A DNA stretch of 59,541 nt from Escherichia phage RCIP0359. The notes below the pieces were generated by a model. That model saw only the letters and a program-made list of their open reading frames with translations. It was not told the origin of the DNA and did no database searches. Location of the stretch: sequence record PV778520.1. One strand, given 5' to 3'. A program made the translations under genes and the position numbers. This document shows, in pieces, positions 56,070 through 57,204 of this stretch. Every line of letters begins with the position of its first letter. Position 1 is the stretch's first letter.

Positions 56070-56495
56070 ATGTCAGTAAATTTTGTCAAACAGCCAACTT
56101 TAAATACATGCGTTTCTGCGTGTTTGGCAATGATCCTTAATAAACCTGTTGAGAAGGTGATTGAGGAATTTCATAGTCGTTATTATAACAACTGGGAAAT
56201 CACTATCAGCGAATATTTGACTAAAAATGGCGTCCAGCATCATTGTTCAGAAGGTGGTGGGCGCGAAACTTTGCATATGGGAGGTTTGTTCCTGTGCACG
56301 GTGCCAAGTCTTAATATTCCGGGCGCATTGCACCAGATTGTGATTGATATGACAGATCACAAGTTTATTGTGCATGATCCAATTAAAGGATGGGAAGGTA
56401 AAAAGTTCTATGTTGGTCCGGATCAAGATCCTGAAGAGCCTGGAGCTTTTATCATTCATACTTGGGTTAAAGACGTTGAAATCCTGCCTTATTAA
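56070..56495 (+). CDS. papain-fold cysteine peptidase, C39-like
   Basis: 141 aa; Q-x5-C active-site context QPTLNTCVSACLAMIL plus downstream H..VHDP. Confidence 0.55.
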   Translation: MSVNFVKQPTLNTCVSACLAMILNKPVEKVIEEFHSRYYNNWEITISEYLTKNGVQHHCSEGGGRETLHMGGLFLCTVPSLNIPGALHQIVIDMTDHKFIVHDPIKGWEGKKFYVGPDQDPEEPGAFIIHTWVKDVEILPY

Positions 56496-56557
56496 TTTTC
56501 TTGCTATCACATAACCCTTCATTGTATTGTGTACCCATCGAATAAGAGGGGTACACA

Positions 56558-56743
56558 ATGACCAAACTATACGCCGGATTGTTTTTATTTGCGACGTTAA
56601 TGTTCGCTGGGCTTTATACCTATACAGTAGTCGAACAACCTTCCACGGTTATCCGAATCTTTGCAAGTACAGGACTGTGCATCTGTCTTATTCTGTTTGT
56701 TTTATGTATTGTTATTATCCAAGACCAAAGGAAAATTAAATGA
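56558..56743 (+). CDS. small two-TM membrane protein
   Basis: 61 aa; two hydrophobic helices; RBS GAGGGG lies in 3' arm of an 8-bp hairpin. Confidence 0.45.
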   Translation: MTKLYAGLFLFATLMFAGLYTYTVVEQPSTVIRIFASTGLCICLILFVLCIVIIQDQRKIK

Positions 56744-57204
56744 CCACAATTGCGTTTGATGGAAAAGTATTAGCTGCGGACCGTGGAGTTATGCGCGGGG
56801 AAGCTGTGACTGCTTATAAGAAAGTTCATAGCGTAAATGGACATCGTGGACGGTTTTTACTGGGCTTGTGCGGCCTTACAGCATTTACAGATCAGGTGTT
56901 GCGTTATTTTAATAGCGCGGAACCTGTTAAGTTCCCTGATATTAAACTTTACAGCAAAGATGATGATTACGGGCAAACTTGCGGTCTTGCGGTTACTCCG
57001 GAAGGTACTTGCCATTTTATTTATAATGATGGTACTTTGAGCGAACCCATGCTGGATGGATGGGGATCTGAGGGTAGCGGTTGTGTGTTTGCTGCTGGCG
57101 CGTTAGCTGCTGGTGCAAGTGCGAGCGAAGCTATTGAGTTAGCAATTAAACACACCACATGCGCATTCCTGGGAGTTGATACAATATCATTTGAGGGTTT
57201 TTAA
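56740..57204 (+). CDS. HslV/proteasome-beta-like Ntn-hydrolase peptidase
   Basis: 154 aa; N-terminal MTTIAFDGKVLAADRG (Thr after Met) and GSEGSGCVFAAGALAAGA align by eye with E. coli HslV (MTTIVSV..VIAGDG; IGSGGPYAQAAARAL), from memory. Confidence 0.6.
   Translation: MTTIAFDGKVLAADRGVMRGEAVTAYKKVHSVNGHRGRFLLGLCGLTAFTDQVLRYFNSAEPVKFPDIKLYSKDDDYGQTCGLAVTPEGTCHFIYNDGTLSEPMLDGWGSEGSGCVFAAGALAAGASASEAIELAIKHTTCAFLGVDTISFEGF

What the first reader, a model, noticed from the sequence alone, without database searches (positions are those of the whole stretch)
56070..57204. Phage-encoded HslV-like Ntn hydrolase next to a C39-like cysteine peptidase
The 154-aa product of 56740-57204 begins MTTIAFDGKVLAADRG and later has GSEGSGCVFAAGALAAGA, the pattern of the HslV/proteasome-beta Thr-nucleophile fold, but it is shorter than HslV and no HslU-like ATPase is encoded. 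Two genes upstream, the 141-aa product of 56070-56495 carries the peptidase C39 active-site context (QPTLNTCVSACLAMIL, later H..VHDP). A 2-TM peptide gene lies between them. They are far from the capsid genes, so a prohead-protease role is unlikely. Possible roles are hijacking or poisoning host HslU, or processing host or phage proteins; I cannot tell which, and the pairing may be coincidental.
Basis: partly seen in the sequence, partly recalled or inferred. Interest (0 to 1): 0.8.

Follow-up and report, generated by a model that had tools for sequence, protein, structure and literature searches.

The report
Two phage accessory peptidases, PPH and C39-like
This coliphage carries a miniature proteasome-like threonine peptidase from an already described but functionally unstudied phage family (PPH) and, two genes upstream, a stand-alone C39-type cysteine peptidase; the two stay neighbours across one phage lineage but occur separately in most other phages.

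Summary
The window is a complete Seuratvirus (Queuovirinae) genome.

**154-aa protein (56740-57204).** It has an HslV/proteasome-beta fold (profile E 2.5e-9 to HslV; AF2 pLDDT 95.6). Thr2, Asp14, Lys28, Gly45 and a GSG loop are conserved. It has no propeptide and no helix H2. [quoted passage not shown] RefSeq already labels it "peptidase HslV family". Its function is unknown.

**Pairing.** C39-like, then 0-1 variable gene, then PPH is conserved in Queuovirinae-like phages at only ~35% protein identity. Elsewhere the genes are uncoupled. PPH usually sits beside packaging/head genes, sometimes next to Acb2/Tad1-like or metallopeptidase genes. C39-like sits in lambdoid nin regions.

**Other points.** No phage unfoldase is annotated. 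"Far from capsid genes" is a coordinate artefact.

**Most likely reading.** These are two autonomous accessory proteases with unknown substrates. This is a new member of known kinds, of moderate interest.

The parts
56070..56495 (+). Stand-alone C39-clade papain-like cysteine peptidase (141 aa; CAjan gp84; PHROG 4049 'unknown function'). Predicted catalytic set: Gln8 (oxyanion), Cys14, His88, Asp103-Pro104.
56530..56557 (+). 8-bp inverted repeat GTGTACCC...GGGTACAC in the 62-nt gap. Its 3' arm overlaps the RBS (AAGAGGGG) of the 2-TM gene. Possible translational control; not tested.
   Evidence: Read directly from the sequence.
56558..56743 (+). 61-aa peptide with two hydrophobic segments (CAjan gp85; PHROG 22841). 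Seuratvirus-specific filler between the two peptidase genes, not part of the conserved pair.
   Evidence: ORF. Hydropathy. Homologues only in Seuratvirus loci. Other lineages have no gene, an unrelated 117-aa gene, or a SLOG gene in this position.
56740..57204 (+). PPH-type proteasome/HslV homologue (154 aa; CAjan gp86; PHROG 1040 'peptidase HslV family'). Predicted N-terminal Thr nucleophile (Thr2 after Met removal), Asp14, Lys28, Gly45, G112-S113-G114. Lacks helix H2 and has no propeptide.
   Evidence: Family description in PMC8665760.
57205..57465 (+). 86-aa protein of unknown function directly downstream (CAjan gp87; PHROG 23528). Conserved after PPH in part of the Queuovirinae-like group. 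Its 'VIGG' is not conserved, so it is not a candidate double-glycine substrate.
55201..55593 (+). Context: YspA-type SLOG domain protein (130 aa; Pfam PF10686 E 5e-18). In Pantoea phage Vid5 its homologue lies between the two peptidase genes.
57548..58986 (+). Context: lysis cassette immediately downstream. Endolysin 57548-57985, holin 57989-58366, i-spanin 58347-58823, o-spanin 58681-58986.
59007..59541 (+). Context: terminase small subunit gene running off the window end (inferred to continue at 1-23). It is followed by TerL 1-1560, portal 1572-3068, scaffold 3164-4036 and major capsid protein 4159-5220. No prohead protease is present.

Best explanation
These are two catalytically intact, independently acting accessory peptidases that one phage lineage keeps side by side.

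**The 154-aa protein.** It is a member of the PPH family, a minimal HslV/BPH-like N-terminal-threonine peptidase.
- Shown: the fold, conserved Thr/Asp/Lys/Gly, a Met-Thr start in every intact homologue examined (no propeptide), loss of helix H2, and the absence of any annotated phage unfoldase.
- Inferred from HslV/BPH: host methionine aminopeptidase exposes Thr1. The subunits assemble into stacked rings that enclose the active sites. The particle degrades peptides or unfolded proteins, either without a dedicated ATPase or with a host one.

**The 141-aa protein.** It is a stand-alone C39-clade cysteine endopeptidase.
- Shown: the fold and the invariant Gln/Cys/His/Asp.
- Inferred: it makes site-specific cuts, possibly after Gly-Gly-like motifs as its closest structural relatives do.

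**Role.** Both behave as accessory genes rather than morphogenetic genes, and their substrates are unknown. The most likely targets are host proteins or non-structural phage proteins (host takeover or counter-defence).

**Adjacency.** Their neighbouring position (C39-like, 0-1 variable gene, PPH) upstream of the lysis and packaging genes is an inherited trait of Queuovirinae-like siphophages. It is not a general two-gene system.
For: **Identity of PPH.** PHROG 1040 E 5e-32. Invariant M1, T2, D14, G45, G112, G114 and near-invariant K28 in 22 homologues down to 30% identity. Profile vs PDB: HslV 2.5e-9, BPH 4e-6. AF2 pLDDT 95.6 with no helix between residues 59 and 79. Foldseek finds HslV, beta5 and BPH. 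Alignment to authentic E. coli HslV maps the catalytic residues and the H2 deletion. Every intact paired homologue examined starts Met-Thr. The published PPH definition matches.

**Identity of C39-like.**

**Autonomy of the two genes.**
- Only 3 of 81 PPH-anchored loci carry C39-like.
- Only 2 of 57 group-B PPH loci with enough upstream sequence carry it.
- 58 of 74 C39-anchored loci lack PPH.
- 196 sequenced phage records carry C39-like against 59 with PPH.
- The usual contexts differ. PPH has a packaging/head/connector gene within 3 kb in 47/80 and 70/80 loci, against 1/74 for C39-like. C39-like lies between O/DnaC-like and NinB/NinG genes.

**Accessory character of PPH.**
- Closely related lambdoid phages carry the same pre-terS metallopeptidase (E ~1e-126) with or without PPH.
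- Neighbours include Acb2/Tad1-type sponges (PF24729 E 2e-19; 20 of 160 loci) and PF18894 metallopeptidases.
- PPH is not among the 11 virion proteins of Vid5.

**Lineage synteny.**
Against: No experiment exists for either family, so activity, oligomeric state, substrates and expression timing are all inferred.

The pair persists as neighbours across Queuovirinae-like phages while the proteins diverge to ~33-38% identity and the intervening gene changes. The two also co-diverge (r = 0.71, n = 15 non-independent pairs). This is what a functional couple would also show.

The strong positional bias of PPH towards packaging/head modules, together with the lack of any prohead protease in this phage's portal-scaffold-capsid module, leaves a morphogenetic role open.

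The anti-defence reading rests only on neighbourhood.

My locus sets were retrieved with short peptide patterns and capped at 80 loci, so the proportions are biased samples.
Confidence: 0.5

Rival explanations
1. Coupled two-protease module. The C39-like endopeptidase makes a specific first cut in a target, or removes a Gly-Gly-linked tag. PPH then degrades the products. This would be a minimal analogue of the Anbu operon, where a proteasome homologue is encoded with a transglutaminase-like (papain-fold) peptidase.
For: - The order C39-like, 0-1 variable gene, PPH is conserved on one strand in all sampled phages with TerL ~75% identical to the window, plus Nonagvirus, Vid5, and the Providencia and Klebsiella phages. 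This holds despite ~35% protein identity and turnover of the intervening gene.
- In six loci the two genes directly abut.
- These are the only two families shared by all 12 co-occurring loci.
- The two proteins co-diverge, r = 0.71.
- In another phage group PPH is directly followed by a different-class peptidase, PF18894, in 31 of 80 loci.
- Anbu/transglutaminase precedent (PMC3235984).
Against: - Most PPH genes have no C39-like neighbour, and most C39-like genes have no PPH.
- More distant relatives carry one without the other: L149, L154 and L135 versus L030.
- PF18894 also occurs without PPH.
- Co-divergence and synteny are equally expected from plain co-inheritance in a lineage with conserved gene order.
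- No ATP-grasp or alpha-E genes, as found in the Anbu operon.
Confidence: 0.2
2. Host-HslU hijack or poisoning. PPH rings dock onto the host HslU unfoldase to retarget ATP-dependent degradation, or they titrate HslU or co-assemble with HslV to disable HslVU.
For: - Closest solved relatives by sequence profile are HslV proteins.
- No unfoldase is annotated in the phage.
- All listed hosts of PPH-carrying sequenced phages are Proteobacteria, which generally possess HslVU (general knowledge).
Against: - Only 17-21% identity to HslV in structural alignments.
- One of the two apical helices (H2) is deleted and the H3-H4 loop is shortened. In HslV the apical helices form the HslU-facing surface and transmit activation (knowledge of HslVU structures, not tested here).
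- The PPH authors found no co-occurring AAA+ partner.
- Mixed rings with HslV are implausible at this divergence.
Confidence: 0.12
3. Morphogenetic protease. PPH removes the scaffolding protein or trims a head, portal or connector protein during capsid maturation, in phages whose head module lacks a canonical prohead protease.
For: - PPH has a TerL, TerS, portal, scaffold, major capsid, adaptor, Neck1 or tail-terminator gene within 3 kb in 47/80 and 70/80 loci, against 1/74 for the C39-like control.
- It sits between the head-tail adaptor and Neck1 genes in L044, L045 and L048, and directly upstream of the portal in 13 loci.
- The window's head module is portal-scaffold-capsid with no protease.
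- The unrelated group B uses the same portal (phrog_145) and scaffold (phrog_206) families.
Against: - Closely related lambdoid phages have the same pre-terS region with or without PPH, so it is dispensable there.
- It was not detected in the Vid5 virion proteome.
- It is never in the canonical portal-protease-scaffold position in the loci I inspected.
- Phages with stand-alone scaffolds commonly need no protease (general knowledge).
- The start of the late operon is a known hot-spot for accessory genes, and Acb2/Tad1-like genes share the spot.
Confidence: 0.12
4. Lysis-related role for the C39-like protein. It acts as a cell-wall endopeptidase, or processes the adjacent 2-TM peptide as part of the lysis cassette.
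For: - It lies 1 kb upstream of the endolysin-holin-spanin genes.
- A 2-TM peptide gene follows it.
Against: - In most phages the family lies in the early nin-type region, far from lysis genes.
- No signal peptide or TM segment is visible in the sequence.
- The 2-TM gene is confined to Seuratvirus.
- A complete endolysin/holin/spanin set is already present.
Confidence: 0.04

Closest known systems
[quoted passage not shown]
   Same: About 140-155 aa; encoded by tailed phages and prophages; group I, nearest BPH/HslV; Thr1/Asp17/Lys33 triad and oxyanion Gly; lacks helix H2; no propeptide; no C-terminal S12/H5; no AAA+ partner.
   Different: Nothing found that conflicts. Direct comparison with the published representative (WP_042125023.1) was not possible. 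The paper reported no informative genomic context. Here I see a positional bias to packaging/head modules, recurrent peptidase and Acb2/Tad1-like neighbours, and the Queuovirinae pairing with a C39-like peptidase.
Bacterial HslV (ClpQ), the peptidase of HslVU
   Same: Best sequence-profile match. Same Ntn fold. Same catalytic Thr1, Asp17, Lys33 and GSG loop. The N-terminus even reads MTTI- in both.
   Different: 22 residues shorter; helix H2 deleted and the H3-H4 loop shortened; below the Pfam Proteasome threshold and no NCBIfam HslV hit; no adjacent hslU; only 17-21% identity.
Peptidase C39 domains of bacteriocin/peptide ABC exporters (PCAT1, ComA, LahT)
   Different: Stand-alone rather than fused to, or encoded with, an ABC transporter. 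No double-glycine substrate found nearby. Below the Pfam gathering score, and only 4 of 41 family members reach E<0.01. Cytoplasmic phage context.
Anbu operon (proteasome homologue + transglutaminase-like cysteine peptidase + ATP-grasp + alpha-E; PMC3235984)
   Same: A proteasome-family Thr peptidase encoded next to a papain-fold cysteine peptidase, with no AAA+ partner.
   Different: PPH is group I, not Anbu. The partner is C39-clade, not transglutaminase-like. No ATP-grasp or alpha-E genes. Phage rather than chromosomal. The association is limited to one phage lineage.

Membership tests
PPH (Fuchs et al. 2021) | Single domain of ~140 residues | tested here: met
   154 aa. Homologues are 143-169 aa, apart from two longer outliers of 200 and 206 aa.
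PPH (Fuchs et al. 2021) | Encoded by Caudovirales phages or prophage regions | tested here: met
   The window is a Seuratvirus genome. 140 and 323 viral contigs carry relatives, as do 59 sequenced phage records.
PPH (Fuchs et al. 2021) | Catalytic Thr1/Asp17/Lys33 and oxyanion-hole Gly47 | tested here: met
   T2, D14 and G45 are invariant and K28 is >=90% conserved in 22 homologues. They map onto E. coli HslV Thr1, Asp17 and Lys33.
PPH (Fuchs et al. 2021) | Lacks the second helix (H2) | tested here: met
   The AF2 model has H47-58, then no helix of >=4 residues until strand 80. There is a ~12-residue deletion opposite the HslV H2 region.
PPH (Fuchs et al. 2021) | No propeptide | tested here: met
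   Met-Thr start in the window protein and in all intact homologues examined, once over-extended ORF calls are corrected.
PPH (Fuchs et al. 2021) | Group I affinity (nearest BPH/HslV) and no C-terminal S12/H5 | tested here: met
   Profile hits: HslV 2.5e-9, BPH 4e-6, beta subunits weaker. The model ends after strand 146-149.
PPH (Fuchs et al. 2021) | Clusters with the published representative WP_042125023.1 | not testable with these tools
   The sequence is not retrievable here, and the supplement holds no sequences.
HslV proper (HslVU peptidase) | Passes the curated family models | tested here: not met
   Pfam Proteasome 15.4 bits against a cut-off of 22.4. No NCBIfam hit.
HslV proper (HslVU peptidase) | Encoded with, and activated by, HslU | tested here: not met
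   No hslU or other AAA+ unfoldase is annotated in CAjan or in the head/tail half of WildeMaa. Activation by host HslU was not testable.
Peptidase C39 (PF03412) | Passes the Pfam gathering score | tested here: not met
   14.3 bits against 22, covering residues 3-25 only. Only 4 of 41 family members reach E<0.01.
Peptidase C39 (PF03412) | Papain-like fold closest to C39, with Gln/Cys/His/Asp | tested here: met
Peptidase C39 (PF03412) | Fused to or partnered with an ABC exporter, and cleaves double-glycine leaders | tested here: not met
   Stand-alone 141-aa protein, with no transporter annotated in the phage. The neighbour's GG motif is not conserved. Cleavage specificity was not testable.
Anbu-type operon | Proteasome homologue with transglutaminase-like peptidase, ATP-grasp and alpha-E genes | tested here: not met
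   The neighbours are SLOG, unknown small proteins and lysis genes. No ATP-grasp or alpha-E genes.

The most novel reading that the evidence does not exclude
In Queuovirinae-like phages the C39-like peptidase and PPH form a minimal, ATPase-free 'cut-then-shred' system aimed at host immunity. The C39-clade enzyme, whose relatives cut after Gly-Gly as deubiquitinase-type enzymes do, would clip a host defence protein or a ubiquitin-like conjugate. The PPH ring would then destroy it. This would be the first function for a viral proteasome homologue and the first protease-based anti-defence pair.
Probability: 0.1. Interest if true: 0.8.

Novelty: new member of a known kind. Interest (0 to 1): 0.4.

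Why it matters
PPH is the only proteasome-family protein regarded as genuinely viral, and nobody knows what it does. The original survey found no informative gene context.

This phage belongs to a group that is easy to work with. Close relatives infect E. coli K-12, including BASEL-collection phages such as WildeMaa and GottfriedDienst. That makes it a practical entry point.

The context patterns found here give concrete hypotheses that knockouts could test:
- late-operon and packaging-module placement of PPH;
- Acb2/Tad1-like and metallopeptidase neighbours;
- a lineage-conserved C39-like partner.

The 141-aa protein also draws attention to a large, unannotated family of stand-alone C39-type peptidases. 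It comprises 823 clusters at 50% identity and is present in Ackermannviridae, Vibrio, Pseudomonas and jumbo phages. Databases still list it as 'unknown function'.

Tried and rejected
- **Single-sequence and narrow-profile searches of the 141-aa protein against the PDB** found nothing meaningful. Only structure comparison resolved it.
- **NCBIfam and PADLOC** gave no significant hits for any of the six genes.
- **Fused domains in longer C39-like homologues** were uninformative: one YunG-like domain and one weak zinc ribbon.
- **First synteny test.** Anchoring on the pattern MT[TC]IA[WF]D suggested the pair was Seuratvirus-only (3/81). This was a sampling bias. Anchoring on the C39-like gene revealed more pairs.
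- **Group-B co-occurrence** (3-5 kb apart) looked like an independent second lineage. It dissolved when only 2 of 57 group-B PPH loci had the C39-like gene.
- **Double-glycine substrate in cis.** The 86-aa protein's VIGG is not conserved.
- **'PPH plus second peptidase' as an obligate theme.** Rejected, because PF18894 also occurs without PPH.
- **Promoter/terminator scan** was no better than shuffles, so expression timing could not be inferred.
- **Literature searches** for phage HslV function, Seuratvirus proteases and PPH follow-ups found no experimental work.
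Full report
**What the window is.** The 59,541-bp window is a complete genome of a Seuratvirus (Queuovirinae). It is 94-98% identical over the tested 4 kb to Escherichia phages PLYYY01, CAjan, Seurat and the BASEL Seuratvirus isolates. It is rotated so that it begins at the TerL start codon. terS (59007-59541) runs off the end, and TerL (1-1560), portal, scaffold and major capsid protein follow.

**Check of the observation.** The three ORFs are present exactly as described, with the quoted motifs. 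Their junctions look like real, tightly packed genes. There is a GAGG RBS before ATG 56070 and AAGAGGGG before ATG 56558. An ATGA overlap joins the 61-aa gene and the 154-aa gene, and ATG 57205 directly follows the TAA stop. The 61-aa product has two hydrophobic segments.

**The 154-aa protein.**
- Pfam gives only a sub-threshold Proteasome hit (15.4 vs 22.4 bits). PHROG 1040 'peptidase HslV family' matches at 5e-32.
- In 22 homologues down to 30% identity, M1, T2, D14, G45, G112 and G114 are invariant and K28 is nearly so.
- A profile of that alignment finds HslV structures at 2.5e-9, BPH at 4e-6 and beta subunits more weakly.
- The AF2 model (pLDDT 95.6) matches HslV, yeast beta5 and BPH with probability 1.00.
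- Alignment with the authentic E. coli hslV product puts phage T2, D14, K28 and G112-S113-G114 on Thr1, Asp17, Lys33 and the GSG loop. It also shows that the missing ~22 residues correspond to helix H2 and part of the H3-H4 loop. The model has no helix between residues 59 and 79.
- Every intact homologue examined starts Met-Thr, so there is no propeptide.

[quoted passage not shown] Its features are ~140 residues, occurrence in Caudovirales and prophages, group I near BPH/HslV, the conserved triad and oxyanion Gly, no H2, no propeptide and no S12/H5. [quoted passage not shown] Every feature I could test is met. Only direct clustering with their representative was impossible. They reported no informative genomic context and no AAA+ partner, and I found no later functional work. 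RefSeq already labels the gene 'peptidase HslV family'. Other records call it 'putative protease', 'ATP-dependent protease' or 'proteasome subunit alpha type-2'.

**The 141-aa protein.**
- Sequence methods alone are weak. Pfam C39 gives E 0.037 over residues 3-25. Profiles find nothing in the PDB. PHROG 4049 is 'unknown function'.
- An exhaustive profile search shows a large family: 823 clusters at 50% identity, mostly stand-alone proteins of ~140 aa.
- Across 155 diverse members, Gln8 (150), Cys14 (151), His88 (155), Asp103 (154) and Pro104 (154) are conserved.
- The AF2 model (pLDDT 90.7) matches the C39 domain of PCAT1 by Foldseek (prob 1.00).
- It is therefore a catalytically intact C39-clade peptidase. 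It is not a member of Pfam C39 by score, is not attached to a transporter, and has no conserved double-glycine substrate next to it.

**Is the pair syntenic?**
- My first, PPH-anchored sample said no (3/81, all Seuratvirus). That sample was biased by its search pattern.
- Anchoring on the C39-like gene gave 16 of 74 loci with PPH downstream on the same strand.
- Those with TerL ~75% identical to the window (L091, L110, L113, L115, L120, L123, L124), together with Vid5 (L138), all have the pair. It is either abutting or separated by one gene, although the two proteins are only 33-38% identical to the window's.
- The same holds in sequenced phages. In Nonagvirus JenK1, gp78 is C39-like (34% identity, E 4e-24), gp79 is unrelated and gp80 is PPH. 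Pantoea phage Vid5 has C39-like, SLOG, PPH. ESCO3, SE1Kor, BRET, HdK1, Klebsiella K9PH25C2 and Providencia PSTCR4 show the same order.
- The intervening gene changes: a 2-TM peptide, nothing, a 117-aa protein, or SLOG. The two families are the only ones shared by all 12 co-occurring loci. They co-diverge (r = 0.71).
- Outside this lineage they are uncoupled. More distant relatives have one without the other. An abundant temperate-phage clade with a distinct PPH subtype (323 contigs) has the C39-like gene in only 2 of 57 informative loci, 3.2-3.6 kb away. And 196 sequenced phages (Ackermannviridae, VP2-like Vibrio podophages, ~90-kb Pseudomonas phages, jumbo phages) carry the C39-like gene, against 59 with PPH.

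**Contexts of each family.**
- PPH lies next to packaging, head or connector genes far more often than the C39-like control: 47/80 and 70/80 loci against 1/74 within 3 kb. These are lower bounds, from BLAST to PHROG-verified references.
- Typical PPH arrangements are: holin-PPH-metallopeptidase-terS-TerL-portal(phrog_145)-head morphogenesis-scaffold(phrog_206); PPH directly upstream of a phrog_156 portal; and adaptor-PPH-...-Neck1.
- In the window the order is PPH-86aa-endolysin-holin-spanins-terS-TerL-portal(phrog_145)-scaffold(phrog_206)-capsid, with no prohead protease.
- PPH nevertheless behaves as an accessory gene. Closely related lambdoid phages share the same pre-terS PF18894 metallopeptidase (E ~1e-126) with or without PPH. 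Acb2/Tad1-type anti-defence sponges (PF24729, E 2e-19) lie within 3 kb in 20 of 160 loci and directly adjacent in 12. PPH was not among the 11 proteins found in the Vid5 virion by LC-MS/MS.
- The C39-like family in temperate phages sits between O-like/DnaC- or P-like replication genes and NinB/NinG, that is, in a nin-type early accessory region.

**Mechanism.**
- Shown: both folds, both sets of catalytic residues, the Met-Thr start, the H2 loss, the absence of an annotated phage unfoldase, the synteny pattern and the contexts.
- Inferred from HslV/BPH: Met removal exposes Thr1, and ring assembly creates a chamber that degrades peptides or unfolded chains.
- Inferred from C39 relatives: site-specific endoproteolysis, possibly after Gly-Gly-like motifs.

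I judge two autonomous accessory proteases acting on host or non-structural phage proteins to be the most likely reading (0.5). The rivals are a coupled cut-then-degrade module (0.2; Anbu/transglutaminase precedent), host HslU hijack or poisoning (0.12; weakened by the lost apical helix), a morphogenetic role (0.12) and a lysis role for the C39-like protein (0.04).

**Verdict.** The HslV-like protein is a member of an already published family whose function remains unknown. The C39-like protein belongs to a large unannotated phage family of a known fold. Their adjacency is a conserved trait of one phage lineage, not a general system. I rate it a new member of known kinds, of moderate interest, mainly as a tractable entry point to the function of viral proteasome homologues.

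Noticed in passing
window 55201-55593 (+); Vid5 locus L138:6462-6830: A stand-alone YspA-type SLOG domain protein (PF10686, E 5e-18; PHROG label 'GTP-binding domain') lies 0.5 kb upstream of the C39-like gene. In Pantoea phage Vid5 its homologue sits between the two peptidase genes, and another lies 1.7 kb upstream of PPH in L037. SLOG domains bind nucleotide-derived ligands, so a signal-sponge or anti-defence role is conceivable.
   Followed up: partly
L238 (GenBank PQ202980.1, Escherichia phage CSP1C) 966-4747: The product names in this record appear shifted by one gene. 'DprA' is on the gene after the SLOG gene, 'cysteine protease' is on the 61-aa 2-TM gene, 'ATP-dependent protease subunit HslV' is on the 86-aa gene, 'endolysin' is on the holin and 'holin' is on the spanin. 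Un-shifted, the record already calls the two genes of this finding a cysteine protease and HslV.
   Followed up: partly
window 56530-56557 (+): An 8-bp inverted repeat, GTGTACCC(12 nt)GGGTACAC, in the gap before the 2-TM gene. Its 3' arm overlaps that gene's Shine-Dalgarno sequence (AAGAGGGG), so it could gate translation.
   Followed up: no
e.g. L168:5634-5924, immediately upstream of PPH; 12 group-B loci: Acb2/Tad1 hairpin-domain proteins (PF24729, E 2e-19), a known anti-CBASS/anti-Thoeris sponge type, are encoded directly upstream of PPH in a temperate-phage clade. They lie within 3 kb of PPH in 20 of 160 loci.
   Followed up: partly
e.g. L191:5343-5975; 31 group-B loci: A PF18894 'putative phage metallopeptidase' (HExxH; E 4e-41; PHROG 513, mislabelled 'transposase') overlaps the 3' end of the PPH gene just before terS. 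It also occurs at that position in related phages without PPH.
   Followed up: partly
window 1572-5220 (+): The head module is portal (phrog_145), scaffolding protein (phrog_206) and major head protein (phrog_247), with no recognisable prohead protease. An unrelated temperate-phage clade that carries PPH uses the same portal and scaffold families.
   Followed up: partly
L091:7079-7489: In this Queuovirinae-like contig the PPH homologue aligns only from profile position 34 onward and lacks the Met-Thr start. It may be a truncated or frameshifted pseudogene, whereas the C39-like gene upstream is intact.
   Followed up: no
window 59007-59541 and 1-1560: The window starts exactly at the TerL ATG and ends 23 nt short of the inferred terS stop (by comparison with WildeMaa, whose terS is 558 nt). 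The window is therefore a rotated complete genome, and features near its two ends are really adjacent.
   Followed up: yes
window 57278-57985 (+): The endolysin reading frame is open for 270 nt upstream of the annotated start (57548), from a TTG at 57278, overlapping the 86-aa gene in another frame. This is probably a spurious extension, but it was not examined.
   Followed up: no
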